Below, piece after piece: positions 31,567-56,973 of a stretch of DNA of 64,000 bases (the first letter of the stretch is position 1; each line of letters starts with the position of its first letter). Under the pieces are notes generated by a model. It worked only from the letters and a program-made list of their open reading frames with translations. It made no database searches and was not told the origin of the DNA. This DNA is from Bilabrum cf. latius (lineage: Eukaryota). The stretch lies in assembly GCA_965178125.1 (NCBI GenBank), contig OZ237770.1, forward strand, positions 434,001 through 498,000, written 5' to 3'. The translations under genes were made by a program, and so were the position numbers.

Positions 31567-32457
31567 ATGAGTCGTAATATTTATTTAACTGGACAATCCA
31601 GTGGAGCAAATGGGGCAGCTTCAATTGCTCGTGTAAATGTAAATAGACAAACAGATATTATAAGTGATACTACGGGATGGTTAATTTCAGTAGAACGCTT
31701 AATTATGAATAAAATTCTTCTACCCTTATTTGATCCAAACGCAAATAAACCCACTATATCATTTCAAAATATTAGTTCTGGTGTCGTAACTTCTGAGGTT
31801 GTTGATTTTTCGGCATTTGATGACCAAGACGGATATATTTATGATTATAGAGATGTCGCCTCGGCAATATCAAATACATTTAGTTCTTTATGTTCAACTT
31901 TAAGTATTGCAGATGTTCCCATAATGACATTTAATGTATCAACAAATAAATTTGAAATTGTTTCGGTTGGTGCTTTTAGATCTGCTTGGAAAATTGGATT
32001 TAATAATGATCTATTTACTTACATGCCATCTTTTAATTATGAATCTGTTTTATCATCTCCTTATTATATTGAACTGGCAGAAGACAGAGAAACACAATAT
32101 ACAAGCACACTTGAGCTTATGTCCCCTGTTTCTAGAATTGTAATTAAATCGAATCTACCAACTGAAAACGAACTTTTACCTCCCCCAATTAACCAATCTG
32201 ATGCAATCGCTGGATCTTCAGACAGTGCGGGTTTTCTAGTCGACTTTGATGTCCAACAGTCGAATAATCAGTCTGTTTCACTTATAAAATATAGTGCAAG
32301 AGATACTGACCATATATGGCACAATTTTAAAGAGTCTAGAAATATTAATTCATTCTATCTAGATTTTTATTGGTTTGACTATAATAATGTTGGTCATCCA
32401 ATCGCATTAAATAAAAATTCACAAATTGATATAAAATTATATTTTGTACAACAATAA
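31567..32457 (+). CDS. Virophage minor capsid (penton) protein
   Basis: 296-aa beta-rich protein directly upstream of MCP, mavirus-like order; C-terminal DFYWFD...IKLYF. Confidence 0.75.
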   Translation: MSRNIYLTGQSSGANGAASIARVNVNRQTDIISDTTGWLISVERLIMNKILLPLFDPNANKPTISFQNISSGVVTSEVVDFSAFDDQDGYIYDYRDVASAISNTFSSLCSTLSIADVPIMTFNVSTNKFEIVSVGAFRSAWKIGFNNDLFTYMPSFNYESVLSSPYYIELAEDRETQYTSTLELMSPVSRIVIKSNLPTENELLPPPINQSDAIAGSSDSAGFLVDFDVQQSNNQSVSLIKYSARDTDHIWHNFKESRNINSFYLDFYWFDYNNVGHPIALNKNSQIDIKLYFVQQ

Positions 32458-32527
32458 TAAAAATAATATAAGTTTTAATAATCAATTAGACAAAAATATA
32501 ATAATTTTTTTCTAATGTTAATTTATT

Positions 32528-34321
32528 ATGTCAAAATACTATAAAGATGTGGTCGTTATGATGCCATCAAACGAGAAATTTAAAGAGCCAAAAGACGTGA
32601 TGTTAGGGGCAAGAGCCTCTAATTCTGAGTCTATAAGACGTGTTATTCCAGCCAGTAATGGCTCACCTGATAAAGGTCAAGCAGGAACAATTGAATTTAA
32701 TTATAATTTCCCTAAGGGCAATGTGCAATCTGTGCCACAACTTCAGGCAGAGCTCACATTGACATTAAGAAAAATTAATAGCGAGGTGATTGCCGATAAT
32801 AAAGCGTTATTTGGTAAATTCGGAATTAGACAATTCGCATTAAATAGACTTATTGATAATGCCAAGGTAGAAATGAATGGGCACGAGTTCAGCTCCAGAC
32901 CATCACAAACAACAGAGTGTTTTGTAAATTCTCAACCATTGTCTCAATTGATGCGTTTGTCTGATGCTCCAGCTGGTCAATTTATGACTACCTACACAGA
33001 TAAATTTATTAATAACTCATTGCGTGAGGGTGCAAATGCTGTTGATACCGTTTCATCTAACGGGCTCGGGAATAACTGGACTTTCTCAGATGTTGCAGTT
33101 ACTGCAGATGGTGCAGGTTTTGTAAAAGTTGCATTAAAAGTTATCTATAGAGAGGTTATATTAGCTCAACCTTTCCAATACCATAACCCCAATCCAGTAC
33201 CCTTTAGAAACCTAAAGGACTTCAAGTGTCAATTTGACATTAAGGCATTGACTGGCTTGGTTGGTGACTTTTTAGTTGCTGACACAACAGCAGTTGACGC
33301 TACAACCACCGTTGAATGTACATCTTCTAAATATAGTTTACTTGTGCACACATGGAATCCAAGCTTAAACCCAATCATTCCTGAAGAAATCGTATATAAT
33401 GCACCCGAAGTAACTAAGTTGGTTTCTCAATCTCAAAATATTGTATCTGGTGGTACTGTTACCCAAAGAACAATAGAAACAAGCACATTTGTACTTAATA
33501 GTGTACCTACTGCACTTTTCATATATGCTAAAAGAGAAAAACTAACCGATGGTTTAAGTTATGGACAACCTGATGAATACGCATCAATTAAAAACCTTTC
33601 TATCGGAACAGCCCAGAAAGAAGACATCTTTAGTAACTACACGCAAAGCCAACTTTATGAAATGTCAGCGTCCAACGGATACAACGAAAGGTACGCAAAA
33701 TTTTCCCAGCAACAAGTGGGTGATGGTATATTCGGGCTTGGTTCAGTGCTAATTATTAAGCCTTCAGACATTCCTGCGGCATCTCAACAAGCCTTTATTA
33801 GTCACGCAAACGAGACATTTACTATGAAAGTTAAAACTCTATTGGATTGTCCAGTAACTGGAAATTATACACTTAATGTTCTAGCATATTATGACGATCT
33901 TGTTTTATTCAATGAAGGTGACAATGGCACTTATAAATCTATGAGACCTCTCATTTCTGGTGAAGTATTATCTAAAGCACCCGTTGTATACTCTGAAAAT
34001 ACCGCTCAAGATAACCATATTGTCGGTGGTTTCTCCTTTAGAGACCTAGGAAACAGCGTTTGGTCAGGCCTTACATGGCTTGGTCGTCAATTACAAAGAC
34101 CAGAGGTTAAAGCAGTATCTAGAACCCTAAGAAATTCAGGTCTTGCCCCTCAGGTAGCCGACGGCTCAGCAATTGGCGATTTTGTTTCTAGATTTGGTTA
34201 TGGAAAAGGTAAGAAAACCACAAAGAAAGGGGGTGATTTACTAAACATTGGTTCAGGCAAAAGCAAAGGAGGTAAAAAGCTAAGCAAAGCCCAATTAAAA
34301 AAAATGCTTGACCAAATGTAA
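32528..34321 (+). CDS. Virophage major capsid protein
   Basis: 597 aa, beta-rich, size and position as mavirus MCP; diglycine site IVGG followed by a basic C-terminal tail. Confidence 0.85.
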   Translation: MSKYYKDVVVMMPSNEKFKEPKDVMLGARASNSESIRRVIPASNGSPDKGQAGTIEFNYNFPKGNVQSVPQLQAELTLTLRKINSEVIADNKALFGKFGIRQFALNRLIDNAKVEMNGHEFSSRPSQTTECFVNSQPLSQLMRLSDAPAGQFMTTYTDKFINNSLREGANAVDTVSSNGLGNNWTFSDVAVTADGAGFVKVALKVIYREVILAQPFQYHNPNPVPFRNLKDFKCQFDIKALTGLVGDFLVADTTAVDATTTVECTSSKYSLLVHTWNPSLNPIIPEEIVYNAPEVTKLVSQSQNIVSGGTVTQRTIETSTFVLNSVPTALFIYAKREKLTDGLSYGQPDEYASIKNLSIGTAQKEDIFSNYTQSQLYEMSASNGYNERYAKFSQQQVGDGIFGLGSVLIIKPSDIPAASQQAFISHANETFTMKVKTLLDCPVTGNYTLNVLAYYDDLVLFNEGDNGTYKSMRPLISGEVLSKAPVVYSENTAQDNHIVGGFSFRDLGNSVWSGLTWLGRQLQRPEVKAVSRTLRNSGLAPQVADGSAIGDFVSRFGYGKGKKTTKKGGDLLNIGSGKSKGGKKLSKAQLKKMLDQM

Positions 34322-34387
34322 ATAGATTAATTTTATTGTATTAATTAAAAGATTTTAATTTAGATTTATTTCTAAACTAAAATTATT

Positions 34388-35566
34388 ATGACTCCTCCAC
34401 TTTCGAAAGAACAAAGGGAAATTTTAAGTAATATATATTATGATGAACATTTTTTATTTGGTCGTGATAAATTATATGAATTAGTTAAATCAAGAGGTTA
34501 CGATATAAGCAGACGACAAATAATGAACTGGTTAAAATCTCAAGAAAACTATCAATTATACAAACCAATTAAACAAAAGAAAACAGTTCAAGCAACAGTA
34601 TTAAAAAGACCTTATGAGCAGTTCGCCGTGGATTTAGTAAATGTCCAAGATATCGAAAAAAATAATAAAAAGTACTTGTTAACTGGCATAGACCTTTTTA
34701 GTAAAGAGGGTTTCGCATTTCCTATTAACAATAAGAAAAAAGAAACCGTATCAAAAGCATTAAAATTAATGATTGGACAATTAAATAAAAAACCATCAAT
34801 TATTAGATCTGATAATGGGAGTGAATTTAAAAATTCGGTTATGACTAAAATGTTAAAAAAAGAAGGAATAAAACAAGTATTCAGTAATCCCTATTCACCC
34901 GAGTCAAACGGTGGTATTGAACGTTTTAATGGTACTCTAAAACGCATGATCAATAAGTCTTTACAGCTTAATAAAGATTGGGTTAATCTTATTTGGGATC
35001 TTGTAGATGCTTATAATAATTCTAAATCAAGAATAACTAAATTTACGCCAAATGAAATTATTAAAAATAAAAAGTTATGGGAACAGGTTTATAAAAATAC
35101 TAGAAAAGAAGCAAAAAATAAATTAGTGAATGAAAGTCATATATTAAAAAAAGGGGATAAAGTAAGAATGGCAAACCTTGAGGATAATTTAAACAGAGGT
35201 CAAAATTTCAGTAAAAAAATATATGAAATTCAAGAAGTATACAAACCAAAGAAAACTTATAGTGTGCCTTCATATAAAATTAAAGGATTAAAAGGTAGAT
35301 ATTATAATGAAGATCTGCAAAAAATTAAATATGTAATGAATGAGCAAAAAGAAGAACAAAAATGGGTTATTTCAAAATTACTTAAACCTACATACAGAGA
35401 TGGCGAACCTAGTTATTATGTTCTATGGAAGGGTTATAAAACGCCTACAATAGAGCCAAGAAAGAATTTAATGGAAGATGTACCAAAATTAGTTAGAAAT
35501 TATGAACGCCTTTATAACGTTAAATGGTATCCAAAAACTGAAACCTTTGACTTTGATTTAAGATGA
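34388..35566 (+). CDS. rve (retroviral-type) integrase with C-terminal chromodomain-like region
   Basis: DDE motifs FAVDL, RSDNGSEF, NGGIERFNGTLK; C-terminal YYVLWKGY..PTIEP..NL. Confidence 0.93.
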   Translation: MTPPLSKEQREILSNIYYDEHFLFGRDKLYELVKSRGYDISRRQIMNWLKSQENYQLYKPIKQKKTVQATVLKRPYEQFAVDLVNVQDIEKNNKKYLLTGIDLFSKEGFAFPINNKKKETVSKALKLMIGQLNKKPSIIRSDNGSEFKNSVMTKMLKKEGIKQVFSNPYSPESNGGIERFNGTLKRMINKSLQLNKDWVNLIWDLVDAYNNSKSRITKFTPNEIIKNKKLWEQVYKNTRKEAKNKLVNESHILKKGDKVRMANLEDNLNRGQNFSKKIYEIQEVYKPKKTYSVPSYKIKGLKGRYYNEDLQKIKYVMNEQKEEQKWVISKLLKPTYRDGEPSYYVLWKGYKTPTIEPRKNLMEDVPKLVRNYERLYNVKWYPKTETFDFDLR

Positions 35567-36499
35567 ATTCAATTTATTCATGCAATTTAATAATATTTTT
35601 ATTTGTTCCTGTTTTGACTTATCATTAATCATTGATAATATGGCGTCTTCTGGTTTTTTATCATTATTATTAGATTGACAATATTTAGTATATGTTAACA
35701 TTTGAGTGCTTGGTGAATTTCCCATAACACGGGCTAAGTCTTCTCTTTCATCATTAGTAAATAATGTTCCTTTATTCATTTTCTCACTAATATAAACATT
35801 TCTAAAATCATTAATAGAAACTTTATTTTTAAAAATCTTGTTTAATATTTTTGTTATACTGGATTGGTCATTTTTTTTATTTGGATTCTTAAATGGAGAT
35901 AAAACATATTCACATTTATATTTTTCTTTAAAATGCTTACAGTAATATATTATACTATCTGGAACTTTAATATATTTGACACCATTTGACTTTTTAGTTT
36001 TATGATCGTATATGTGGAGCTCTTTTTCATCTAGTAATAATTTATTTTCTTCTTCGTGGTTGTCAGTATCTAATATTTTCGTTGTTAACCATTCCGTGAC
36101 TCTAAGAGGTGGCATATATGCGTAAAGAGATAAAAGCCATGCTCTATATTCATTCATTTTATTATTATTGCCTCCTTCAATTTCTTTTAATTTCTTTTCA
36201 ATATCAAAATATTTAAAACCTTTGATATGTTCCTTGGCATTTTTATTATAATATTTGTTGTTTTTTTTCAATTCAATTAATTGTTTATTTAATGTTTCAT
36301 CATAATGTTTATTTATTGCCTTACAAACTGTTATATATTTATGTAAAAAACTAGATTGGTTACTTTGTGGTACATCTTTTAAGTATTCCATTATTGGTTT
36401 ATCTTGTTTCTCTATTTTTTCATAGATTCTAATATAATCATTTATGCTTTTTTCGGCAAGATTGGGCTTTATATTTTGTATTTTTTCATAAAAAGACAT
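35558..36499 (-). CDS. Virophage tyrosine recombinase
   Basis: PPLR, HKTKK, INDFRNVYIS, LARVMGNS...TY in catalytic order. Confidence 0.8.
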   Translation of the reverse strand: MSFYEKIQNIKPNLAEKSINDYIRIYEKIEKQDKPIMEYLKDVPQSNQSSFLHKYITVCKAINKHYDETLNKQLIELKKNNKYYNKNAKEHIKGFKYFDIEKKLKEIEGGNNNKMNEYRAWLLSLYAYMPPLRVTEWLTTKILDTDNHEEENKLLLDEKELHIYDHKTKKSNGVKYIKVPDSIIYYCKHFKEKYKCEYVLSPFKNPNKKNDQSSITKILNKIFKNKVSINDFRNVYISEKMNKGTLFTNDEREDLARVMGNSPSTQMLTYTKYCQSNNNDKKPEDAILSMINDKSKQEQIKILLNCMNKLNSS

Positions 36500-37023
36500 T
36501 CTTTATATAATATATGCTTATTGATGCCAGAGTGTACGCGCAACCTAGTCTCGTTAACAATCAGACATGGCAAGACCTGACAAAGCTGTGCCTGTGCGCG
36601 ACCCTTGACCGGACTGACCGGGGCTGGGAAGAGCACGTGCACTACTCCGCCGAGGAGGAGGGGGTTGGGAGGGTGGGCAAAAATTACCCAATCTCCGCCC
36701 CTCTCCTGAACACAGAGAGGGTATGCGCGTCATCGCAAGCAATCCGTTGGCTTGGTCGCACCTTCCCGGTCGCAACCGCCATCGGAACCCAACGAGACGT
36801 TCACGCGCTCCCACTCTGGCATCAACACCGAACCCCATCCGGCGTTAGGATCATGATGCCAGAGTGTACGCGCAACCTAGTCTCGTTAACAATCAGACAT
36901 GGCAAGACCTGACAAAGCTGTGCCTGTGCGCGACCCTTGACCGGACTGACCGGGGCTGGGAAGAGCACGTGCACTACTCCGCCAAATCTTACCGCCATGT
37001 CTTGTACGCTGCGGCTGTGTGGC

Positions 37024-38082
37024 TCACTCCAAGTTCAGCCGCAGCGCGCTGGCCAGCACCCACACTGGCCTGTTCAAATCGAGGCTCCTGCCGCCGAGCT
37101 CCAGAGGAGGCAAACCTTCCCTGACGCTCCGCAAGTACACCTCGCATGCAGATGCCGACTTCCATCTGCCAAATCGCCTAATGACCTCGAAGGCGACCCC
37201 AGCACGGTCCAAACACATCACTGCCGCGATGCGGATGGAATGTCCGTGCACCGCTCCTGCAACTTCTCGTGAGCAGAAGCTGCGGAGCGCCCGTACTACC
37301 TGCGCCTTGACGATCGGCTTCGTGTTCGCCACGAAGACTGGCCCTGACGTGGGGCAGCTGAGCGCCAGCTACCGGGCGTAGTCTTCGTCTGCGCCTGCAG
37401 TTGGGGCGTGGCTCGCTGCTGCCCACGCCACGAAGGCTCGCACGCCGCAGAACCTGCTGCCTGTGACTGCCCATCGTCCGGCTCTGCAATGGACTGCGAT
37501 GGGCTCTGCGGCTTGGATGGAGAACTTGGCTGGGCCGTCGGCTTTGTGGAGGCCCAGGCGGATGGCAACACCATGGATGCGTCCGTCTCGCGTGATGAAC
37601 TGCACTTGCTGCCATTGGAGGCCGGCTTGTCGTCTGGACGCACCGACGAGCTCTCCCAGCCGGAGGCCCCCACAGAAGCAGAGACAGACAGCTGTCCGAG
37701 CAGCCTACTCTGTTGTGCTGCAACCGGCTGTCGAGAAGCACCGTCGGATTGCGCGGAGTGGGGCTGAAGATCGACGCAACGGGTGCGCCGATGGCGATGC
37801 TTTGTGGTAGTACCGGAGGATGCTGTCGAGCTAGCTTGACCGTGGGACGCCGCACGCACCTGTGGACTCGATGACGACTCGCTAGGCATTTCTGGTGTAT
37901 GTAGCGATGGTGCCGCCACTGAGAGGCGAACATTCCCCTAAGAAGACTGCGAATCTCGAGAGCGCTGCATTGAGCCTGAACGCGAAGAGTCTGCGAGCTG
38001 CTGGAAGATGCCCGTCCATGAAACTGCGGTCGATGTCGTACCACGTGAGGAAGTTGTCGAAGTGCCCCCACGCCGTGCGCAA
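37024..38082 (-). CDS. Retrotransposon tyrosine recombinase (4 in-frame TAG; start uncertain, overlaps the pol frame)
   Basis: CFCGGLRLGEL, HSIRIAA, RFGRWKS...VY in one frame via TAG at 37882, 37831, 37705, 37369; ends TGA. Confidence 0.88.
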
Positions 38083-41000
38083 CCCACTGAGTCCAGAGTG
38101 GCCACCAGCGTGAAATGGTCGTGCTTGTACAAGGTGTTCCAGATCGGCGTGGGACAGTCGACCTGATACACCGCGTCCAGGTGCGTGTATGCCTCCTGTG
38201 AGCCGCGGCTCAAAGCGTCCGCAACGACGTTGTCCTCGCCAGGAATGTGTTTCACGTGAATCTGCACATCTTGCGTTGTCTGCAGTACGAAGATAGGGCG
38301 AAGTAAGGCTGCCATGATGTGGCTCTTGGGTCTGCCGTAGCGTATCAGCTACACGGAAGCATCATTATCACACCACAAACGCACCACACGTCCACGCAGG
38401 TGCTGTCGCCAATGCGCCAGTGCCAACAAACATGTTGCAAGTTCTGCCGCCGCTACATCCTTCGCCTCTAGGCGATGCGGCCAAGTGCCCTGGATGCCGG
38501 TGTGCGAAGTGATGTTGCCGTCCTTGTCGTGGAGAAGCAGCTCGGCGCCGTAGCCTGTCACCGACGCATCAGTGCGAAGGATGGGACAGTCAATGGTGCC
38601 CCGCATCGGAAAGCTGCGCCCGCCTTTGCGCTGGATAGCCACCTGGAATCCCTCGAGGATTTCCCCAACTGTGAAGCCACCCTTGGACACAAAGGAGGTG
38701 GGGACCCACACCTCACCTGGTCGTGACCGGCTGGCCTACTTGTGAAGGGCCCAGCCCTTGGCGTCATACAGGGGACGTAGAGCACCGCGCATACCATAAA
38801 GTGCGCCCGACAGGAAGGACAACTTGCCGACCAAGGTCTCAAAGCTAGACAGCAGCATCCCCTTCGTCGTGAGTGCCTCGTGCAGTCTGCGCAGGACGTC
38901 GTTGGCCTTGTCCTTAGGGCACCGCACCTCGTGTTTGATCAAGTCGTAGGTGAGGCCCAAGTACTCGAACACCGGGGCTGGGGCCCCTTGCTTCAATGCT
39001 TTCGAGATGCTGACGGGGAAGTTTGTGGAGTCCAGCTGCCCCATGGCTCGAATTGCCCATGCATCGACTTCGTGATCTCCGCCGAGGCAGGCAAAGTCAT
39101 CTACAAACACCTCATTTTCGACCTACCAATGGCGGGACTAGTCTTGGGCCGTCTTGACATGTCCCGTTGTCGTGCTAGCGGCAGGCGGGGTGGACGTTGC
39201 TGACGAGTTCGCCTGGGGCGCCTGGTCCGTCGTGCTGGATTGGGCGTTGGCGTGCTGCTGCTTCCGGCGTCGTTGCTTCTGCTTGTGTCTCCGTCCGGGT
39301 CGCATGGCCCTGCCAATGGACTGCTCCTCGAGGGCTTGGGCCAAAGCCGAACTGATCGTAGTTGCGAAGGCGGGAGATGATGAGCTGCCCATAGAGAGCC
39401 TGAAATCTTGCACGATGCGCCCGTCGGGCAGCTTGATCAGGTTGTATTGGAGATCCTCCACTGCCACCGGCAGGACCCGAAAGTACGAGGAAATGTCGAC
39501 GACGTATCCGCTGGCACGCTTGGGGCAGGATCGAACTGCTGCGGCTGCCGAGCGCAGCACGTCCATGCTGCTCGTCTGCTGCACAGGCGTGGCTGCACTG
39601 TAGTCGATGGCCTTGTTCAGACCGGTACGCTGGCCGTTCACCTTGAGTGAGGAGTCCTGAAGGAACCGTAGCTTTGTCGAGTCCTTCTTGGGGATCACCA
39701 GCGGCCGGGCCCGGGCTGTGTCGAAATCTTTGGGTGACACGAAGTCACGCTCGCCAGCCCGCATGGAGCGCCCGATCTCGCAGGCGATCTCCCACTTTTC
39801 TTCCGGAGACAGCTTACGGTCCTTGTAGTCTAGATCGTGCTCTTTGGGCACCTCGTCCACGATGGCTAGGGGGCAACCATAGTTCAGTGCTGCCAGTACA
39901 CGCTCGACTCGTGGGAGGGCTTTAAACTCGGCAAGGGACGGGGCCTTCCTCGGTGTGCGGCCGCCAAACAGAACCTCCCGCCGGGTCCGCAGTGTTGCAG
40001 TCTAGCGAGGCACCTTGTCGAAGTACTTGCGTGGCGTGAATGCCAGCGGGTCGTCGTGAACCTTCAGGTGGAGCCGCTCACGGTCCCACGTCGCAGCTGG
40101 AGCCTCCACGAATTCGCCGGGACAGTCTCTGGTACGCTGGTGATCGTCCTTTCGCTGTATGAAGTCCTCGACGGAGGGTGCTGTCGTCCCTGCCCACTCA
40201 TGGCTTGGATCCGGAGCTGGATATGCCCAGTCAACGAATGCTGGAGAGATGTCCGTCCTACCTGGCAGCCTCGTGGATGACGCCGTGGGCGGCCGCTGCG
40301 GTCGCTTAGGGCGCGCTAGGGCCACCAGGACTGGGTGAAGCGCGGGCGTTGACGTGACAGGTGGTGTGGAAGCAGCACACGCGTCCGATGTGGTGGTAGT
40401 CTGCGTACGCCCCTGCGGCAGTGTTGGTGTTGGAGTGCTGGGCTGGCTCTGACGTGACGTACCTCGTGGGGGGGGGTCAGGTGAAGGCTCCTTGGACTTC
40501 CTGGTGGAACCCCCGTCCTGCCGGTCCGCACGCTGGTGCTGGCCACCTTGCTGGCCTGCGCCGCCACGTCCACGGCCTCGACGGTGTCGACCTCCGCCAC
40601 GATCGGCACTGGGCTGGTCGCTGTCACCCCCGCTGCGCCTGGAGCCTCCACTGCCCCCGCCTCCACTGCCCCGGCCTCCACTGCCCCCGCGAGGGTCGAA
40701 GTGACGGGACAGTGCTGCTCGACGGGACGGCGCCTGCATGTCAGCCTGGACTCCCTGTAGCAGTCCGCGCACGAGGCCAGGTTCGCCTGATCTGCATGCC
40801 TCAGTGGCCCACGGATGCAGCAATTGTAGGAGACGCATGCAGTCGCCAGAAGAGCACGAAGGAATCTCATTCCCAACAAGGTCACGAATCTCAACGTCAC
40901 AGCGTTCGCCTGTATGGCGCCAAGCATGGGAGGAGAGCATCTCAAAGGCTGAACTTCCGCGTGGTATCACACACACAGCGGCAAACACCACCTCTAGTCG

Positions 41001-42929
41001 GGACGCCGATGCAGATGATGCCCCGGAAGCACTAACCAAACGAAGAAAATCATTGCGAACCTGCCCCAGGGTTTTCCAATCGGGCACTAGTGATGCTGGA
41101 CACGACCACGAGCTGCTGCCCTGCGGCAACCAGGCCGGCAAGGACGCCGTCGAATGCGCGCAAGCAGCGCGCACGAGCACACAGCCTAAAGCAAAGGAAA
41201 TAGCCGAGTAAATAGTGCATAGTAACTCGCTAGATGGCACCTACTTTTCTCGTCCGCCTGCAGCAGACGACTCCGAGTTGGACGCATCAAACTTCCCAAA
41301 ACTGGCATTGCTCATCGGCAGAGCTGCATGAAGCCGGCTCGTGAACGAGAAAATAGCCGATTCAATCTTGGCTCTCGTCACGGCCTGACCAAACAGGGCA
41401 CGGGCCAGTTCTGCAGCGAAATCGCGGCCGCTAGCGTCCAAATGAAGCGCGTCAGCCTAGCAAAACCGCGGCATGAACGCGGATTGGCGAAAGATCGAGG
41501 TCAACGTTGCCAAGAAATCATCAGAAAACCAATTCTGCATTCGAATTGCAGCGATTGAAGGTGCAGAGGCCTCACGCTACAAAATCTCCACTGGTTGCGA
41601 GCGAACGACCGCGGAGTCCACTGCCGTGCCTGCGCCCGGTGAAACTGGGTCAATTGAAGACGCAGGCTGCGGTGAGGCAGAAGATGACACAGGAGGTTCA
41701 CGGGGTGGCTGATGAGCGGGTGTAGCGTCGACCGGTGGCGGGGATGAGTGCATCGAGGCTGCTAGTCGGTGCGAGAAGTACCATTGCAATTCCACGTGGG
41801 CGGAGAGGTGCGACAGCAGCTCTTCCTGGCGCAGAGTCGGAATGCTGTGCCACAGCGCAAACAGGCGTAGATGCAGAATTGTCGCTGGGTCGGCCGTTCC
41901 CCGCAGCGTCGTGGAGTGCAACACTGCCCGTTGGAGATCCCCAGGAAGGCGGCCCCAGACCGCGTCAAGCTAGCGGCTGGTGCCCGGAGTCACGCCGGGG
42001 GAGTCGTAAGCCGGAGACACACGAGGAAGAAGAAGCTGAGGGCCTGCCGGGCCCGTTGACCGTGATGCTGCACTGCTGAGCGCCTCCGCGAGCACTGTCG
42101 GATCGCCGAAGTCCCGAGTGCCTGGCCTACCGGGGAGCCTGCCCGAGGCAGGTGGAGGTTGGTGCCGCGGGGGTGAAGACGTTGAGAAGTTGGGCTGTCC
42201 GCTGCGCTGGGTATCTGCTGCTGTCCCCGGGGGCCCTCGGTTCGGGGACTCGTGCAGGTGGGCCCGCCCGCCTCGCGCGAGCGGGGCCTGCCGCGTCGTC
42301 GAAGAGCCTGGCCGCGCCCGCAAGGGCGAAATTCCGCGGCTTGTCCTGGTGGCACTCTACGCCGCTCGGTCGCGTCCAGGTGAAGCATGGATGGCGGCGC
42401 CGAAGTCGAGGCGTCCGGGTGGCCGATGCTGTCCGCGAAGAGGAGCGGTCCGCCGGCCCGTCGGTAGTGAACTCAGGGACCATGGAGACTCGATTGAAGA
42501 AGGAGCCTCTGGAGATTGCTGAACAGGATGAAGATGTACTTGTCCTGCGAGTCGCTCAGGCTGTTGCCGTCGAGGAGAGCTCGGCGACGCCGGCAGAAGC
42601 AGCCGTGCACCGAGAGTCGTTAGCGTCCCATTTGACACGAACTTGGCGAGAGCGGTGCTCTTGACAGCATTAATGGACCGTGATGCCGTGAAGGACTGCT
42701 TTGATGAGTACCTGTCGAGCAAGTAGCACAGGAACCCCGCATCGTGTGCACGTTGAAGATCGGGATCGCAAAAATTACCCAATCTCCGCCCCTCTCCTGA
42801 ACACAGAGAGGGTATGCGCGTCATCGCAAGCAATCCGTTGGCTTGGTCGCACCTTCCCGGTCGCAACCGCCATCGGAACCCAACGAGACGTTCACGCGCT
42901 CCCACTCTGGCATCAACACCGAACCCCAT
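37218..42929 (-). CDS. Retrotransposon gag-like/RT/RNase H polyprotein frame (12 in-frame TAG; exact ends uncertain)
   Basis: One frame from ATG 42929 to TGA 37218 with only TAG; RT motifs VIPKKDS.KLRFLQD, VDISSYF, LSMGSSSSP, FVDDF, YLG; RNase H motifs TDAS..GYG, AEL, CDN, HIPGEDNVVADALSR. Confidence 0.85.
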
Positions 42930-42984
42930 CCGGCGTTAGGATCAATAAAAAATATTGTTTAAATGCGTTTTAAACTGTTAATAT

Positions 42985-46769: not shown

Positions 46770-46777
46770 AAAATATT

Positions 46778-47341
46778 TTAATGAAAAGCCATTGTGACGA
46801 TTTCATCTATTGAATGTCTATTTTTAAGTTTCTTTTTTGCCTCTTGCATTAGTTGATTATATTGATCGTTTGTAAGATCGGCATAGTGTACGCGGTTTAA
46901 TGAGTGCCTTCCACAACTCGCAATATGAGAACCTTCTCCTTGATGCTTATATGGTGAATAATCCACGTCATAACCGCTATCGAGTAAACGCCTAATTAAT
47001 GTATTATTAGATTCTTGATATAAATTCAAATCTGCATATTTTTTTTGCCCAACATCGGGGAGTCCGCCGTAACTATCATAAAAATATATTGTATTTCCCT
47101 TTTTTGTTAAAGCTACATAATGCCCCGATGTTGCATTTCCTTGTTTAATCATTGGATAAAATACAATTAATTTATTATCTCCTTGAAATAATGATTCAAT
47201 TGATGGAGAATTTATAATATCGTCATATAATACAACACGAGGAGGTGGACCTTTAGTGTGTGGGTGTTTATTCCATAGTTCTTTTAATTCTTGAGGACTA
47301 AGATATGTCCCAACAAGTTGTTTTAATTTTTCTCTATTCAT
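46778..47341 (-). CDS. Virion maturation cysteine protease (adenain-like)
   Basis: SGHYV, FYDSYG, HQ...SCGRH catalytic H/D/Q/C order. Confidence 0.88.
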   Translation of the reverse strand: MNREKLKQLVGTYLSPQELKELWNKHPHTKGPPPRVVLYDDIINSPSIESLFQGDNKLIVFYPMIKQGNATSGHYVALTKKGNTIYFYDSYGGLPDVGQKKYADLNLYQESNNTLIRRLLDSGYDVDYSPYKHQGEGSHIASCGRHSLNRVHYADLTNDQYNQLMQEAKKKLKNRHSIDEIVTMAFH

Positions 47342-47379: not shown

Positions 47380-48441
47380 TTAAATTTTTATCGCTTCCTT
47401 TTGACTTATCATATAGCCTATATCTGGGTTTATACTAATCCATCTAGATTTTTTCAATGCTAGTTTAACCCTTTTAATTTGTTCTTTATTGAATCCTAAA
47501 TAAGTTCTTAATAAATAATTACGTTCATGGTCTGTACCTTTACTAAAAAATACATAATCGGTCGTTTCAATTTTAATTAACTTCATATGTGCACCATCTG
47601 ACCCTTTGTGATTACATATAATTAAATTAGTCTTAGTGTGTCTCCCCTTGGTTAATAGGGTGTCCCTTAAAAATTCAATCTTTCCAATATCTGGGTTATT
47701 TTCGTAATCATCAAATAAAACTAATGAATCTTGAAATATAGCATCTCTTGCTTCTTGATCTATTTTAAACTCAAATTTATCTTTGCCTTTTCCGTCTGGT
47801 TTCATATCATGTAACATTAATTCTAACTTCATTAGCATTTCTGGGTCATCTGCATACATTTTCTTTTTGTATTTAAATTTAATCTTTGCTTTTTCATACT
47901 CTTTTTTTGCGTCTTCATGACTCACATTTTCACCAACTAATGAATTAATATCTAAATATTTTACTTTTCCAAATTTAGAATCTTTGACATCCGTGATCAC
48001 ATAAATCTTTTTAATTCCAAATTTTCGTGACATTTCCATTATTTCGGTTGAAAAATATGACTTTCCAGAACCAGACTTACCATTTAAAAAGAATACGAAT
48101 CTATTAAATGAGTCATCTTCAGTATGACCTAGTGAATACGGAATAACTCTAAACATTGATTTGTCTTTTATCTCTTCACTGTTGAATTTTTGGGCTTCTT
48201 CTGTTCCATTATATAAATTTATTAATTCTTGCTTTTTCTGTTCTTTAGCTTTCTTTGATCTTACCGCATGAGTTCCAAAGATTGCGTATAATTGGTCATC
48301 CGTTATATCTTCGGGCTCTAATTCTTTATTTTTACATTCATTGTCATAATATAATACTTTATTTTTGCTTTGCTGGTTATTACCTGTATATTTACGGTAT
48401 GCAATGGGTATTGAATCATCTCCTCCGCTGTAACTAAACAT
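47380..48441 (-). CDS. FtsK/HerA-type (A32-like) genome packaging ATPase
   Basis: Walker A GKSGSGKS, Walker B LVLFDD, KGRH...IICNH. Confidence 0.9.
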   Translation of the reverse strand: MFSYSGGDDSIPIAYRKYTGNNQQSKNKVLYYDNECKNKELEPEDITDDQLYAIFGTHAVRSKKAKEQKKQELINLYNGTEEAQKFNSEEIKDKSMFRVIPYSLGHTEDDSFNRFVFFLNGKSGSGKSYFSTEIMEMSRKFGIKKIYVITDVKDSKFGKVKYLDINSLVGENVSHEDAKKEYEKAKIKFKYKKKMYADDPEMLMKLELMLHDMKPDGKGKDKFEFKIDQEARDAIFQDSLVLFDDYENNPDIGKIEFLRDTLLTKGRHTKTNLIICNHKGSDGAHMKLIKIETTDYVFFSKGTDHERNYLLRTYLGFNKEQIKRVKLALKKSRWISINPDIGYMISQKEAIKI

Positions 48442-48534: not shown

Positions 48535-49383
48535 TTATTTAATTAAACGCTTGAATGCCTTAATTTCGTTTTTAACGTCATTTGTGATATAAGAATGTAA
48601 TTTTTTCATAACTTCTTTTTGTATTTTACTAATATTTTTCATTTTAAAATCTGATTTCTTAAGATCCAAATGAAACATATTCTTTAATCTGACCATTAAA
48701 TCCTCCTTTATGTTGTTCATCACAAAGTTTTTAGTTGCCGTTGTATCTCGTACATTTTTAAGTGCTTCAAGTCTGGCATTAGTAAGATATAAAAAACCCA
48801 CATTGTCAGAACTTAACAAACTATTAATTTCTTCCATTTTATCGTCGTATCCTGTTCTTCGGTATATCTCACGCAATCTCTTAAGGGCTTTATAATATTT
48901 TCCTTCTTTTTCCAATTTCATGGCGTCTTCTATTAAATCTTCTGTTATTTCATCTTTAGTTTTTCCCATAATTGAATCACCAAAATCATAAATTATCGTA
49001 ACCTCTTCATAATACCCATTAGTAAATACTATTAAATCAAGTTTAACCCATTTTTTATCTTGTTTAATATACTTTGGGTTTTCTAGTTCATCAGCAAGTA
49101 ATTTGATAGCTTTTCTTTGTGTTCCTGCTTTCTTTTTACCTATTTTAAGTTCACTAACATCTATGTGATCACCAATGTCAATTAGAAAGCTGAATAGTTC
49201 ACGTAAAAGCAGTTTATATTGTTTCATTTCTAATTTCATATATAAATCGAGATCAGAAGCAAAAAATGAAATAGGGAAAGAACCATTTAATAACATATCT
49301 GCATCTTTTATTAACATAAGATCTTTAAACAATGCGGAATGGTCAGTATTAAATAGTTTGATGGTTTTATTGTTAATTTCCAT
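48535..49383 (-). CDS. Putative Pol-beta-superfamily nucleotidyltransferase-fold protein
   Basis: LNGSF...ASDLDL and later KLDL; start placed at ATG 49383, downstream of a TCTA motif. Confidence 0.5.
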   Translation of the reverse strand: MEINNKTIKLFNTDHSALFKDLMLIKDADMLLNGSFPISFFASDLDLYMKLEMKQYKLLLRELFSFLIDIGDHIDVSELKIGKKKAGTQRKAIKLLADELENPKYIKQDKKWVKLDLIVFTNGYYEEVTIIYDFGDSIMGKTKDEITEDLIEDAMKLEKEGKYYKALKRLREIYRRTGYDDKMEEINSLLSSDNVGFLYLTNARLEALKNVRDTTATKNFVMNNIKEDLMVRLKNMFHLDLKKSDFKMKNISKIQKEVMKKLHSYITNDVKNEIKAFKRLIK

Positions 49384-49431
49384 TATATAGAATAACATTA
49401 GATTAATTTTTTTCTAGTGTAAATATATTAT

Positions 49432-50826
49432 ATGTCAACTGAATTAAGAAATATACTAAGACAGCAAAATATAAGACGTCAAGAATCCAATAAAGGAGTA
49501 GAAAATAGAAATTTAAGTTTAAGGAATGAAAGACAATCTATTTTAGAAGCTTTAAAGAATCAACAAAGACAAGATGATATCGTATTAAGCACACAATTTC
49601 AACCCCTAGAGCTAAGAAGAAGAGAAAAAAGAATGGATGGTATTCTAAGAAATTTAGTTACTGAATTGGTTGATGGTCTAAATAAAGACGATGATACTAA
49701 AATTAAGGTAAATTTAGAAAGAATGAAGGAAATAATAGTAAAGGAAAACCCAAGCATATCAATGTTAGGGCAATTGGGAAAATTTTTAGATCAATATCAA
49801 AATAAAATAGATTTATTGGGATTGTCTAAATCTAAAAAAACATCACTTAAAAGAACTGCACAGGAAACGGAAAACCTCGCAATATCTAGTTTGACAAGTG
49901 ATGAAGATTTTAAAAAAATGATTAAAAGCCTAGACACACCTAATATTGATAAATTTTCAAATGATGATCTCGAGGTGTTTAGAGATTTATTTAATTTAGA
50001 TCCTGCAATAAATAAAACAGATTTAAAAAACCTTATAAAAACAATCTTGGGTGATGATGTGTCTAAATATCTAGAGGGCGAGGTTCAAATTGATCGTGAG
50101 ATAGTCAGTGCAACAAGAAATTTAAGAAATGTATTAGAACAATTTACCAAAGAACAGTTATTAGAACAATACTTTAATGAAGATGCAGTAGAAACATTTA
50201 AAGCAGATTATAAGGAAGATTATATAAAACAAGCACTAAAAAGTAAAAAAGGCATGATTGATTTTCTTGTTAGAGAATTTTATAATATTAATGAAATTGG
50301 AGAACCTCCAATTTTAGAAAATATAGACGACATTGATTCACTTCCAACGGGTGAATTTATGACAATGAAAAAGGTGTTTAATGATTTCCTGTCTATGTTA
50401 ATGACTGATGAAGCCCTAGAAGAGAAAGGATTATCAAGACAAACAGTGTCACGCATGACAAAAAAAAGATTTAAGGATCTATACGAAGAATATGTAGAAA
50501 AGTCACCTATTAAACGATTATATAATGTTCTTCTTTCCGTTGAGAATGATACTGTAACGAAAGAAGCACGAGAAACATTAGAAGCTATCAAGGAAGAAGC
50601 TCGAAAATTAAGAGAAGCACAGGATGCCCTTACAAAGAGAGTTGCAATAAGAAAAATAACGGAGGCACTGGAAAATTATGGATTAACTAAAAGAGAAGCA
50701 AGAAGAAGAAGAAGAATGGAAGAACTAGAAGATGAAGATGAACGAAGAGAAGATGAAGAAGGTGATTCTACAGATGATGAAGAATCTGACGGAATCGCTG
50801 TTGGTTTCGATAATGTTGATGAATAA
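49432..50826 (+). CDS. Helical/coiled-coil hypothetical protein with acidic tail
   Basis: 464-aa ORF with TCTA motif. Confidence 0.7.
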   Translation: MSTELRNILRQQNIRRQESNKGVENRNLSLRNERQSILEALKNQQRQDDIVLSTQFQPLELRRREKRMDGILRNLVTELVDGLNKDDDTKIKVNLERMKEIIVKENPSISMLGQLGKFLDQYQNKIDLLGLSKSKKTSLKRTAQETENLAISSLTSDEDFKKMIKSLDTPNIDKFSNDDLEVFRDLFNLDPAINKTDLKNLIKTILGDDVSKYLEGEVQIDREIVSATRNLRNVLEQFTKEQLLEQYFNEDAVETFKADYKEDYIKQALKSKKGMIDFLVREFYNINEIGEPPILENIDDIDSLPTGEFMTMKKVFNDFLSMLMTDEALEEKGLSRQTVSRMTKKRFKDLYEEYVEKSPIKRLYNVLLSVENDTVTKEARETLEAIKEEARKLREAQDALTKRVAIRKITEALENYGLTKREARRRRRMEELEDEDERREDEEGDSTDDEESDGIAVGFDNVDE

Positions 50827-52977: not shown

Positions 52978-53550
52978 ATGAGTATAAGCAATTTATTAAC
53001 TTCAAATAACCTAGACTTAAAAGCTAATTCTATTGATGCAATAGATGTTAAAAAGAAAGGTCAAGCTTTGACATTTAATGGATATCACTTTGTCCAAAAT
53101 AGAGGAAATGGAACTACTCCTATAACTTTAAATGCTCCAGGAAATATTTTCGATGGATCAACTTTTACCGTTGCAGATACGGCATTATCTATCATGGGTG
53201 GAACGTACAATATGCCAATAGACAACACTTATAATTGTATCATTAAATGTAATATGTCATTTATTAATACGAATACTTCAGCTGTCAGATCTGCAGGTAT
53301 TGCCTTTCAATTTCAGAATGCCTCAGATGATACATGGGATATTAACCCTTCTAATTGTCCCGTGATGTGGCATGTTATAAATCCTGAATCTGCCCAAACA
53401 ATACAATTAGTACATTCATTAGATTCAGATCATGGATATAAAGCAGTACGTTTAATGTTTGCTGGTGAGAATTCAATTGATATTGATTATAGCTCAAATA
53501 ATCCAACTAGAATATGTTATTGCACTTTAGAACGTTTCTATAGTTTGTAA
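52978..53550 (+). CDS. Putative short fiber/spike protein
   Basis: Shares N-terminal MSISNLLxxNNLDLxA with the upstream protein. Confidence 0.55.
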   Translation: MSISNLLTSNNLDLKANSIDAIDVKKKGQALTFNGYHFVQNRGNGTTPITLNAPGNIFDGSTFTVADTALSIMGGTYNMPIDNTYNCIIKCNMSFINTNTSAVRSAGIAFQFQNASDDTWDINPSNCPVMWHVINPESAQTIQLVHSLDSDHGYKAVRLMFAGENSIDIDYSSNNPTRICYCTLERFYSL

Positions 53551-54629: not shown

Positions 54630-54941
54630 ATGGATATTAAATTATTAAATATTAAACCATCTACAAGAAAGAATAAAAGATTAATGGCAACATTTAAATT
54701 AACTAAAAAAGGTTATGAACCAAAACAATATATTGTGCATTTTGGGGCTAGAAATGGAAAAACATACATAGACCATCAAGATAATAAAAAAAAAGTCAAC
54801 TGGCTAAAAAGACACAAATACTATATAGAAAAAGCTGATTATGTCCCTTGGTCTGCTCCTGTGTTAAGCTGGAGAATATTATGGTCAAAGGACAATTTAA
54901 AGGATGCAATAGATAATTATAGAAAGACTTATAATTTATGA
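54630..54941 (+). CDS. Tlr6F-like small protein of virophages/Polinton-like viruses
   Basis: STRKNK...VHFG...YIDH.D..KK..W..RH...LSWRILW pattern. Confidence 0.7.
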   Translation: MDIKLLNIKPSTRKNKRLMATFKLTKKGYEPKQYIVHFGARNGKTYIDHQDNKKKVNWLKRHKYYIEKADYVPWSAPVLSWRILWSKDNLKDAIDNYRKTYNL

Positions 54942-54971: not shown

Positions 54972-55592
54972 ATGTATATGTCAATGTTGAGTGATCTCCT
55001 CGATAAAAACACAAAAGATAGACAACAGGATCAAATATTTGTAGAATGTTATATAGGTTCAAAAATTACCCCACTATTAAGACTTCGTAAGTTTTTAATG
55101 GAACGTTATCCTCCTGAATTCTTTAAAAATGGAATTATTAAAAAAGACTTATTAAATTTACATAACACAATAAATCGTATCAAGAAAGAGAGAACCGAAT
55201 TATTATCAATCATATATGAAAAATATAATAAACTAACCAAAAATGAAAAAAGGAAATTAAGATGTCAAATGCCACTAGATTATAAAAAAATATTCAAAAA
55301 TGAACCAATACTCGTAAATCGAAAGTTTACAAGTTTTAGAAAACCATTAATTGATTATATTCAAGAATATGTAAATATGGATTTTATAATGAGACTTGAA
55401 GACGATATCGATGAATATCTATGGGGAAAACCCCTTGATGAGGTTATTGACCATTTAAATGAGAAATCTAATAAACATCTAGAAAAGTTATATTTATGGC
55501 AACTGAATAAAAAAGAGATAACGGACTTTATGAAAGTTGAAATAGAATTTAGAAGAATGCAAGAAGAAATTTATATAACCACTCATTTATAA
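54972..55592 (+). CDS. Hypothetical protein
   Basis: 206-aa ORF. Confidence 0.6.
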   Translation: MYMSMLSDLLDKNTKDRQQDQIFVECYIGSKITPLLRLRKFLMERYPPEFFKNGIIKKDLLNLHNTINRIKKERTELLSIIYEKYNKLTKNEKRKLRCQMPLDYKKIFKNEPILVNRKFTSFRKPLIDYIQEYVNMDFIMRLEDDIDEYLWGKPLDEVIDHLNEKSNKHLEKLYLWQLNKKEITDFMKVEIEFRRMQEEIYITTHL

Positions 55593-56300
55593 ATCCGTAA
55601 AGTTCTTTAAAGCATGTACATTAAAATAATTATTCTTTTTATGAGGGCTGGTATAAAATGTCACTTGATCAGGATTCATAAATTGGGCTAAATTATGACT
55701 TACAGGGTCGCCATCTACAACATGATATTTAATATTACCAATGTTAAATTTAGGGTCTCTTATCATTTCAAAATTTAAAGCTGGATTAAATGAATGTCCT
55801 TTAATTTCTTTACCGTATTTTTTAGTAAGATATGCAACCATCCCAGAACCCAGTGAGTGAGAAGCAAAAGAAATATTATGATCTGGAAAAGCTTGTTTGA
55901 CAGCTTCATAAATATCAACTAGATCTTTAAAGTTTTCACTTTTATCTAGTGTGCCTTGTGCTATCTTTAAATCATCCATAACGTCCGATCCGTCAACTGT
56001 ACCCCTAACTCCAATAATGATATTTTTATTTTTAATATAAATTTTTCTTCTATCATCTTTAAAGATTACACGATAACCGTCTATTATATCCCTTTGTTTA
56101 GTCTTTGGGTATGTTTGACGTGCAATTTTAGCGTGTAATTTAGCTTCCTTACTTAATTGCTGTAGTTTCTTATTTCTTCTTGTTAAAAATCTATAAGTTC
56201 CCACGGGTACATCTTTAATAAATTCCCAGACATTCCCGCCCTTTACTCGTTTTTTTAAAATTTGTATAATTTCTTTTTTTGTCAATTTATTTTTTGGCAT
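55587..56300 (-). CDS. Alpha/beta hydrolase (class 3 lipase-like)
   Basis: GVRGT, SHSLG nucleophile elbow, FNP, GDPVS, C-terminal His. Confidence 0.85.
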   Translation of the reverse strand: MPKNKLTKKEIIQILKKRVKGGNVWEFIKDVPVGTYRFLTRRNKKLQQLSKEAKLHAKIARQTYPKTKQRDIIDGYRVIFKDDRRKIYIKNKNIIIGVRGTVDGSDVMDDLKIAQGTLDKSENFKDLVDIYEAVKQAFPDHNISFASHSLGSGMVAYLTKKYGKEIKGHSFNPALNFEMIRDPKFNIGNIKYHVVDGDPVSHNLAQFMNPDQVTFYTSPHKKNNYFNVHALKNFTDL

Positions 56301-56346
56301 ATATAAGTTAACATAATAAAAAAAAATATCTAATGTTATATATATA

Positions 56347-56973
56347 ATGGCTTTAGAAATAGCTATTTCATCAGTAAGCGGAGCTTCGGCTCTAGTAGCA
56401 TTAGGCTATTATGGGGTGTCCTGCATGGGCAAGGTAAAAAAAGCATTTGACATTAAGAAGGCATGTCTTGTAATTCCCAAGGGATGCGGAAAGACTACAT
56501 TGTGTAAGAAATTTGAAGGAAATGACACGAATCTTTTAGTCGTAGACCTTGACGAATTGGTATCAAAGCATCCAGATACGGACAAATCTTTTTTAGAAGG
56601 ATTAGAAAAAGCTAGGGAGTCAGGCGATGACTCAACATATAGGGTATTATATCAAGAACTGGCAAAGAAAGTATACGAATCATTAAAAAAATCATGGTTA
56701 ACAAAAAAAGAAAAAAGAATGTTGTGTTTGACTGGATCATTAGAACTAGCCCAAGAATTATTTAAAAAAACTAGTATTTTCGTTGCCTCACCATCAAATA
56801 AATTATTTAAGGATCTTGTATATGAAGCAACAAATGAAGTACAAGAAGTAATGAGAAGAGAAAGAACAAATTTAATATCCGAACTGCAACCCTCTCAAAT
56901 ATATGTTTATGACACATTCGAAGAGTTAAATGCAAAATTACAGCTCCAATTTAAAATTAAGCATCACCTTTAA
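56347..56973 (+). CDS. P-loop NTPase/kinase-like protein with hydrophobic N-terminus
   Basis: IPKGCGKTT and VVDLDE; last 85 nt lie inside the right TIR. Confidence 0.65.
   Translation: MALEIAISSVSGASALVALGYYGVSCMGKVKKAFDIKKACLVIPKGCGKTTLCKKFEGNDTNLLVVDLDELVSKHPDTDKSFLEGLEKARESGDDSTYRVLYQELAKKVYESLKKSWLTKKEKRMLCLTGSLELAQELFKKTSIFVASPSNKLFKDLVYEATNEVQEVMRRERTNLISELQPSQIYVYDTFEELNAKLQLQFKIKHHL

What the first reader, a model, noticed from the sequence alone, without database searches (positions are those of the whole stretch)
31567..56973. Virophage is code-neutral: no TAG as stop or as sense in 19 genes
Seen: 16 virophage ORFs end in TAA and 3 in TGA (35566, 54338, 54941); none ends in TAG and all look full length without read-through. 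Inference: the genome translates identically in standard-code and TAG-reassigned hosts, which could reflect recent arrival, host range across codes, or constraint from the helper giant virus. Caveat: AT-rich genes favour TAA anyway, so lack of TAG stops alone is weak; the lack of sense TAG in an AT-rich genome is the more informative half.
Basis: partly seen in the sequence, partly recalled or inferred. Interest (0 to 1): 0.75.

Follow-up and report, generated by a model that had tools for sequence, protein, structure and literature searches.

The report
Code-neutral virophage in recoded protist host
This single-celled host reads the stop codon TAG as glutamine and most of the small viruses integrated in its genome have adopted that reading, but this one never uses TAG, most likely because its lineage came from hosts with the ordinary genetic code.

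Summary
Observation confirmed: 19 genes, 5,954 codons, no in-frame TAG; 16 TAA and 3 TGA stops. The host reads TAG as Gln (tRNA-CUA gene; 11 of 18 conserved TAG columns are Gln).

Sense half: strong. 56 of 61 virophage capsid matches in this genome contain TAG. An equally AT-rich sister element has 48 TAG among 209 Gln codons, against 0 of 203 here (P=4e-16). Three variants of this lineage and two other element types are also TAG-free.

Stop half: uninformative. AT-rich environmental relatives end in TAG in only 2 of 52 genes, so 0 of 19 has P≈0.47.

Best reading (0.6): repeated immigrants from standard-code hosts, compatible with both codes as a by-product of AT-richness, living beside naturalised TAG-using residents. 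Selected dual-code host range (0.22) or a helper-virus constraint (0.12) are not excluded; no standard-code host was identified. Ten paper searches found neither this pattern nor a stramenopile-type UAG=Gln code; the scan's notes held only a phage analogue.

The parts
30244..30312 (.). Perfect terminal palindrome (34-bp arms, 1-nt centre) at the left end of the element
   Evidence: I6; z -13; similar palindromes at both ends of the C1, C21 and C40 copies
30274..31246 (+). Left terminal inverted repeat
   Evidence: 99.3% identical over 973 nt to the right TIR
31567..32457 (+). Penton (minor capsid)-like gene, 296 aa, TAA
   Evidence: 33-49% identity to a capsid-module gene lying beside MCP in 7 environmental contigs; no Pfam hit; name inferred
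32528..34321 (+). Major capsid protein, mavirus-like, 597 aa, 30 Gln codons, no TAG, TAA
   Evidence: PF22031 E 1.7e-13; PDB 6G45 E 6e-56 over residues 7-592
34388..35566 (+). rve integrase with chromodomain-like end, 392 aa, TGA
   Evidence: PF00665 E 2.8e-16; Chromo below cut-off
35558..36499 (-). Tyrosine-recombinase-fold protein, 313 aa, TAA
   Evidence: model pLDDT 62; Foldseek XerA E 2e-4; VIA Z about 10 to integrases and Cre; invariant R133, K167, R233, Y270 in 4 homologues
36522..42944 (-). Ngaro retrotransposon inserted between virophage genes; host code: 12 TAG in the gag-pol frame 37218-42935, 4 in the YR frame 37024-38361
   Evidence: split direct repeats 42768-42944=36677-36853 and 36854-36983=36522-36651; RVT_3 and Phage_integrase hits; 98.9-99.9% identical copies elsewhere
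42985..43641 (-). Cys-rich ORF, 218 aa, TAA
   Evidence: no Pfam hit
43669..43890 (-). Small ORF, 73 aa, TAA
   Evidence: TCTA motif upstream
43931..46432 (-). Primase-helicase-like gene, 833 aa, TAA (no pPolB gene in the element)
   Evidence: DUF5906 E 3e-14; name inferred
46778..47341 (-). Cysteine-protease-like gene, 187 aa, TAA
   Evidence: 42-51% identity to syntenic genes of environmental virophages; no Pfam or PDB hit; name inferred
47380..48441 (-). Packaging-ATPase-like gene, 353 aa, TAA
   Evidence: Walker A/B visible in the sequence; 2,058 profile hits; 42-48% to syntenic genes
48535..49398 (-). Conserved gene preceding the ATPase (position of mavirus MV14), 287 aa, TAA
   Evidence: 25-32% identity to the gene before the ATPase in 5 environmental contigs
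49432..50826 (+). ORF, 464 aa, TAA
50898..52946 (+). Fibre-like ORF, 682 aa, TAA
   Evidence: name inferred from composition
52978..53550 (+). ORF, 190 aa, TAA
53611..54279 (+). Basic ORF, 222 aa, TAA
54338..54619 (-). ORF, 93 aa, TGA
54630..54941 (+). DUF5754 gene, 103 aa, TGA
   Evidence: PF19058 E 1.5e-11
54972..55592 (+). ORF, 206 aa, TAA
55587..56300 (-). Alpha/beta-hydrolase (lipase-like) gene, 237 aa, TAA
   Evidence: Hydrolase_4 E 0.005, below cut-off
56347..56973 (+). P-loop ORF, 208 aa, TAA
   Evidence: AAA_14 E 0.002, below cut-off
56889..57855 (-). Right terminal inverted repeat, ending in a half palindrome
11013..15266 (+). Host glycosyltransferase-like frame open only with TAG as sense (13 TAG): local evidence of the host code

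Best explanation
The element is an integrated mavirus-like virophage in a flagellate whose ribosomes read UAG as Gln. Virophage mRNAs are translated by host ribosomes (established), so a lineage that stays in this host drifts into using TAG through CAG-to-TAG changes, as most virophage types here have done. This lineage has not, because it did its evolving where TAG was a stop: in standard-code hosts. It reached this host several times as distinct variants. It can be read correctly here because such AT-rich virophages almost never end genes in TAG anyway. Code neutrality is thus mostly a mark of origin plus a by-product of base composition, perhaps with a weak filter against TAG stops. Once sense TAGs accumulate (as in the sister element on C37) the way back to standard-code hosts would close. 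Shown: host code, the TAG counts, the failure of neutral evolution in a TAG=Gln host, the stop-codon control. Inferred: the standard-code reservoir, the direction of movement, the one-way ratchet.
For: Residents use TAG for 19-43% of Gln codons in 24 of 24 ten-kb loci with low-GC ORFs from other elements (automatic ORF calls), and the sister element on C37 with the same GC3 (0.21) for 23%, or 29 of 117 at aligned positions. With rates taken from Leu, Lys and Glu codons, 7.7 TAG are expected over the split between this copy and the C40 variant if TAG were free; 0 seen, P about 5e-4, while 18 CAA/CAG changes occurred. Three variants have different TIRs (74-75% identity) and replication modules, all TAG-free, so there were several arrivals. 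The C1 copy differs by only 8 synonymous changes in 4,255 codons: too little time here for TAG to appear. The wider family includes members that end genes in TAG: 4 of 5 genes in L112, 6 of 17 in L135. AT-rich relatives have no sense TAG and 2 of 52 TAG stops. TAG-free capsids (L116, L117) are the outgroup of the clade in the tree.
Against: No standard-code host carrying this lineage was found. The one dataset under another organism label holds the virophage gene but also the end of the host-code Ngaro, which points to the same kind of host. The closest environmental clade (54-60% capsid identity: L115, L118, L119, L121) uses sense TAG, so a recoded common ancestor followed by loss of TAG is about as parsimonious as two gains. 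The two TAG stops in the control set are followed by TAA within 3-4 codons, and the hosts of those contigs are unknown, so the control may itself be near-neutral. Pooled over 34 distinct genes of two TAG-free types there are 5 TGA and 0 TAG stops, a slight hint of filtering (P 0.26 against the control). The data exclude free use of TAG but do not say where the constraint acted.
Confidence: 0.6

Rival explanations
1. True dual-code generalist: the lineage keeps cycling between standard-code and TAG=Gln hosts, and selection removes TAG both as sense and as stop.
For: Repeated presence of mosaic TAG-free variants and of two further TAG-free types in a recoded host; no TAG-bearing gene from co-resident types is seen in them; 0 TAG against 5 TGA stops in 34 distinct genes; nested among TAG-using relatives in the tree.
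Against: Lack of TAG stops is matched by AT-rich relatives (P 0.47); nothing here shows replication in this host or return to a standard-code host.
Confidence: 0.22
2. Helper constraint: the giant virus that this virophage needs makes UAG unreliable in the infected cell (its own release factor, or depletion of the single tRNA-CUA), so TAG is avoided within the recoded host.
For: Giant viruses can encode eRF1-type factors (search listing and abstract start of PMC6582330; otherwise recalled). Both TAG-free types with capsid genes carry the TCTA late motif (12 of 19 and 8 of 12 genes). One tRNA-CUA gene was found.
Against: The TAG-using sister has TCTA at the same spacing before 5 of 17 genes including MCP, as do TAG-using L029, L115, L119 and L121, so the promoter class does not separate the groups. 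No helper sequence was examined.
Confidence: 0.12
3. Translational optimisation inside this host: TAG is a slow codon and highly expressed viral genes avoid it.
For: Host HSP70 genes use TAG for 3 of 129 Gln codons and dynein/Prp8 for 72 of 811; single tRNA-CUA gene found.
Against: Resident virophage capsid genes carry 4-15 TAG each; avoidance here is total in all 19 genes.
Confidence: 0.04
4. Chance or circular ORF calling.
For: Standard-code ORF calls cannot contain TAG by definition; CAG, the direct precursor of TAG, is rare (28 codons).
Against: ORFs are unchanged with TAG as sense, cover 93% of the element and are full length; P 4e-16 against the sister.
Confidence: 0.02

Closest known systems
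Mavirus and the endogenous mavirus-like elements (EMALEs) of Cafeteria burkhardae (PMC8547959; passages read)
   Same: AT-rich element of about 20 genes with TIRs in a GC-rich host; mavirus-like MCP; penton before MCP; rve integrase; TCTA motif; Ngaro inserted between genes.
   Different: Low GC yet no pPolB, with a long primase-helicase and a tyrosine recombinase, the gene set that paper gives for mid-GC EMALEs. Palindromic ends. The host is recoded; the passages read do not treat stop-codon reassignment (C. burkhardae's standard nuclear code is recalled).
Scheffersomyces segobiensis virus L in CUG-Ser yeast (PMC3628385; abstract and passages read)
   Same: A eukaryotic virus that all but lacks its host's reassigned codon; framed by the idea that variant codes are antiviral barriers.
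   Different: There an RNA virus and a sense-to-sense change, read as adaptation. Here a DNA virophage and a stop-to-sense change, with code-adopting and code-neutral relatives side by side in one genome.
Endogenous viruses of Streblomastix strix (PMC10120064; passages read)
   Same: Integrated protist DNA viruses that use the host's Gln-recoded stops, taken as a sign of long association; matches the resident types here.
   Different: UAA and UAG are both Gln there, and no code-neutral subset is mentioned in the passages read.
UAG-only to Gln nuclear codes: Iotanema spirale, Hartmannula sinica, Trochilia petrani, Protocruzia tuzeti (PMC11687900; passages read)
   Same: UAG=Gln with UAA and UGA kept as stops, and a tRNA with CUA anticodon.
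   Different: The word stramenopile does not occur in that paper; this host looks like a non-photosynthetic stramenopile (inferred, not firmly placed).

Membership tests
Virophage, mavirus-like endogenous element | Virophage major capsid protein | tested here: met
   PF22031 over cut-off; full-length match to mavirus MCP 6G45, E 6e-56
Virophage, mavirus-like endogenous element | Penton, packaging ATPase and Cys protease genes | tested here: inconclusive
   Candidates are conserved and syntenic in 6-7 environmental contigs and the ATPase has Walker motifs, but no named Pfam or PDB match was obtained
Virophage, mavirus-like endogenous element | Terminal inverted repeats | tested here: met
   973 nt, 99.3%
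Virophage, mavirus-like endogenous element | rve integrase | tested here: met
   PF00665 E 2.8e-16
Virophage, mavirus-like endogenous element | Target-site duplication | tested here: inconclusive
   No clean duplication at the window's ends; the right end is a half palindrome; empty allele not available
Virophage, mavirus-like endogenous element | Dependence on a giant virus | not testable with these tools
   Only the TCTA motif, 12 of 19 genes, which PMC8547959 equates with the CroV late promoter
Low-GC mavirus-type EMALE | Protein-primed DNA polymerase B gene | tested here: not met
   None among the 19 ORFs, which fill 93% of the element
Ngaro retrotransposon | Split direct repeats A1-ORFs-B1A2B2 | tested here: met
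   (D4, D6); layout as in PMC8547959
Ngaro retrotransposon | RT/RNase H and tyrosine recombinase ORFs | tested here: met
   RVT_3 over cut-off; Phage_integrase E 1e-4, under cut-off
UAG-only to Gln nuclear code (host) | In-frame TAG aligns with Gln | tested here: met
   11 of 18 TAG codons in conserved dynein columns; 14 of 29 opposite Gln, like 44 of 88 for CAA/CAG
UAG-only to Gln nuclear code (host) | tRNA with CUA anticodon | tested here: met
   G000:C23:907607-907679; anticodon arm resembles the host's tRNA-Gln(CTG); one copy found
UAG-only to Gln nuclear code (host) | UAA and UGA remain stops | tested here: met
   5 of 5 host frames checked end in TAA or TGA; four have recognisable C-termini
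UAG-only to Gln nuclear code (host) | Gln shown at UAG by peptides | not testable with these tools
   needs mass spectrometry
Virus adapted by avoiding the reassigned codon (SsV-L type) | Avoidance is derived and kept by selection in the recoded host | tested here: inconclusive
   Free use of TAG is rejected over the C36-C40 split, but where the constraint acted is unknown; tree equivocal; stop half not significant
Protelomerase (for the 313-aa protein) | Fold closer to TelA/TelK than to ordinary tyrosine recombinases | tested here: inconclusive
   Z 6.2-6.6 to TelA/TelK against about 10 to integrases, on a model of pLDDT 62

The most novel reading that the evidence does not exclude
A virophage lineage that actively straddles two genetic codes, cycling between standard-code and UAG=Gln flagellates and kept free of TAG by selection in both roles, while its neighbours in the same genome have been locked into the recoded host; the TAG share of Gln codons would then serve as a residence-time clock and a direct test of variant codes as barriers to virus host jumps.
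Probability: 0.25. Interest if true: 0.82.

Novelty: new variant of a known kind. Interest (0 to 1): 0.6.

Why it matters
The idea that variant genetic codes block virus movement between hosts has had few eukaryotic test cases (PMC3628385 states it). This genome holds both outcomes in one virus family: many types that adopted the host's UAG=Gln code and three that never use TAG, with a sister pair at 58-80% identity in core proteins differing only in this state. It suggests that a stop-to-sense change is a leaky barrier inward for AT-rich viruses and a hard one outward. TAG share gives an assay for residence time and for assigning environmental virophages to recoded hosts. The host code may itself be an unreported UAG=Gln case, and standard-code gene calling would miss or fragment most of its virophages.

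Tried and rejected
Single-protein scans of viral and metagenome contigs with MCP, integrase and the C9 MCP found nothing; alignments found 16 loci in all. A 46-row ATPase alignment was too diverse to search with.

Rows dropped before the stop count: L112 and L135 (45-47% GC, composition mismatch; TAG stops 4 of 5 and 6 of 17), L113 and L114 (same genome as L135), L115 and L118-L121 (sense-TAG users, fragments), L117 (only two closed ORFs, both non-TAG). L120 was read in one frame across an apparent frameshift, so its branch in the tree is an artefact.

Sequencing runs: no RNA holder listed. Laying 4 of 7 runs on L052 was inconclusive about the second organism's code: host genes were uncovered even in the control run.

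Rejected: virophage-borne suppressor tRNA (tRNAs inside other elements are Met and Pro); Ngaro insertion as a mark of TAG-free elements (TAG-using elements have Ngaro pieces too); TCTA promoter as separator. A single-sequence fold of the 313-aa protein was unusable (pLDDT 41). Host placement by mtHSP70 was weak: best full-length hits 69-75% identity, with one unnamed environmental protein at 96% over 85%; a look-up in PMC5447177 gave no matches for the terms.

Paper searches without a report of this pattern or of such a host code: (open-licence library only; supplements not read, and those of PMC8547959 hold EMALE codon tables that bear on the stop control).
Full report
What is there. Window 30244-57855 is an AT-rich element with 973-nt terminal inverted repeats (99.3%) in a host background of about 60% GC. 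It holds 19 genes. The capsid protein matches mavirus MCP over its whole length (PDB 6G45, E 6e-56); there is an rve integrase, a tyrosine-recombinase-fold protein, a long primase-helicase-like gene and no pPolB. A Ngaro retrotransposon (36522-42944) sits between two genes. This is the arrangement described for EMALEs of Cafeteria burkhardae (PMC8547959, passages read).

The observation. The 19 ORFs end in 16 TAA and 3 TGA at the stated positions and contain no in-frame TAG in 5,954 codons (CAA 175, CAG 28). This is not circular: allowing TAG as sense changes none of them, they fill 93% of the element, and the core genes are full length against homologues.

The host code. Long host and Ngaro frames open only with TAG as sense. 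Among 12 dynein paralogues, 11 of 18 TAG codons in conserved columns face Gln. A tRNA gene with anticodon CUA and a Gln-like anticodon arm is present, one copy found. Five of five host frames checked end in TAA or TGA. So UAG=Gln with UAA kept as stop. Known cases are Iotanema and three ciliates (PMC11687900, passages). The host looks like a Cafeteria-like stramenopile from its viruses, its Ngaros, its probable UGA=Trp mitochondrion and weak HSP70 evidence; this placement is inference.

The sense half is strong. Of 61 capsid matches in the genome, 56 contain in-frame TAG; the five without are this copy, its relatives on C1, C21 and C40, and one distant type on C9. In 24 ten-kb loci from other elements TAG makes up 19-43% of Gln codons (automatic ORF calls, so slightly inflated). 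The sister element on C37 has the same GC3 (0.21) and 58-80% identity in core proteins, with 48 TAG among 209 Gln codons against 0 of 203 here (P=4e-16). Its TAGs face Gln in 14 of 29 cases, like its CAA/CAG codons (44 of 88). The C40 variant (20 genes, 0 of 204), the C9 type (12 genes, 0 of 139) and a capsid-less element on C14 (9 ORFs, 0 of 83) are TAG-free too. The three TAGs seen in C1 and C21 ORFs lie in Ngaro DNA.

A neutral test. Between this copy and C40, 18 Gln sites changed between CAA and CAG and 34 Leu sites between C and T at first position, but no CAG became TAG. A three-state model with those rates expects 7.7 TAG even from a TAG-free ancestor (P about 5e-4). The lineage therefore did not diverge with TAG freely available. 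The near-identical C1 copy differs by 8 synonymous changes in 4,255 codons, too few to test selection inside this host.

The stop half is ordinary. Five AT-rich (27-36% GC) environmental relatives have no sense TAG and end 2 of 52 genes in TAG, so 0 of 19 has P about 0.47 and 0 of 34 pooled genes P about 0.26. Two GC-richer relatives use TAG stops freely (4 of 5, 6 of 17) and were left out of that count. Against this control: the hosts are unknown, and both TAG stops have a TAA 3-4 codons later.

History. In the capsid tree, relatives with TAG stops (L112, L114) are basal, TAG-free L116 and L117 come next, and then a clade holds this lineage, TAG-free P0004, TAG-using C37, and an environmental group with low sense TAG use. 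Two gains from a TAG-free ancestor, or one gain with later loss, fit about equally; the inner node is open. P0004 being full length may reflect bias toward standard-code gene calls.

Mechanism. Most likely (0.6) these are immigrants from standard-code hosts. Several variants with different TIRs and helicase modules arrived, readable here because AT-rich virophages seldom stop on TAG. Residents show the later state, from which return to a standard-code host would be blocked. A selected dual-code life cycle (0.22) predicts the same counts plus TAG-stop avoidance, for which there is only a hint. A helper-virus constraint (0.12) is weakened because the CroV-type TCTA motif precedes genes in both TAG-free (12 of 19, 8 of 12) and TAG-using elements (5 of 17 in C37; L029, L115, L119, L121). 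Codon optimisation (0.04) fails against resident capsids with 4-15 TAG. A dataset under another organism label shares 57% of the words of the element, but it also holds the host-code Ngaro end, and host genes were uncovered even in the control run, so it gives no standard-code host.

Comparison and novelty. Code-adopting endogenous viruses are known in Streblomastix (PMC10120064, passages) and a codon-avoiding totivirus in CUG-Ser yeast (PMC3628385, abstract and passages). Ten searches of the open library found no report of both states within one virophage family in one genome, nor of this host code; supplements were not read. The scan's own notes held nothing on this genome and one phage analogue. 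Verdict: a real feature, a new variant of a known kind. The neutrality is probably partly incidental, but the contrast with the residents makes the code-as-barrier idea testable. Interest 0.6.

Noticed in passing
G000:C23:907607-907679 (L058) and host genes genome-wide: The host uses a UAG-only to Gln nuclear code with one tRNA-CUA gene found; its eRF1 gene (C35, L087) itself contains an in-frame TAG. No such code was found reported for a stramenopile in the searches run.
   Followed up: yes
window 30244-30312; L039, L049, L052, L053, L055, L056, L090, L093, L095, L100, L101: Several virophage types carry perfect palindromes of 56-71 bp, at the element ends where these were located; their sequences differ between variants yet stay perfectly paired. 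With no pPolB and a tyrosine-recombinase-fold gene present, they could be hairpin-end or resolution sites. None was found at the ends of the C37 element.
   Followed up: partly
G000:C9:380828-391226 with 373284-374300 (L045-L047): A second, unrelated TAG-free virophage type (capsid closer to Sputnik V20): 12 genes, 0 of 139 Gln codons TAG, next to a TAG-using element.
   Followed up: yes
G000:C14:1122253-1131841 (L160, L161): A third TAG-free element (9 ORFs, 0 of 83 Gln codons) with integrase and recombinase homologues but no capsid gene seen, among several Ngaro copies.
   Followed up: partly
L090:6678-7064, L094, L097, L098, L102, L103: Some TAG-using virophage types carry their own tRNA-Met gene, one also a tRNA-Pro.
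   Followed up: no
L115, L118, L119, L121 (metagenome contigs): Environmental virophages at 54-60% capsid identity use sense TAG at a low rate (1-3 per capsid gene), implying recoded hosts in the wild.
   Followed up: partly
G000:C95:6099-7900 (L110): A second 18S rRNA gene, only 77-83% identical to the main rDNA array on C12: probably a second eukaryote in the assembly.
   Followed up: no
G000:C111: Contig with clustered tRNAs including anticodon TCA and an SSU rRNA match: likely the mitochondrion with UGA as Trp.
   Followed up: no
window 46642-46774: Internal copy (82%) of part of the TIR with its own inverted repeat, between the helicase and protease genes; the C1 copy has a Ngaro repeat remnant just beside it.
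   Followed up: no
C1, C21, C40, C37 copies (L037-L056): Breaks in other copies: C1 integrase split in two ORFs and lipase-like gene hit by Ngaro at its start; C21 464-aa gene and C40 helicase interrupted by Ngaro; C37 capsid has an internal TGA.
   Followed up: partly
window 29731-30201, 60655-61868, 62833-63992: Host tandem repeats of 24, 131 and 86 bp on either side of the element.
   Followed up: no
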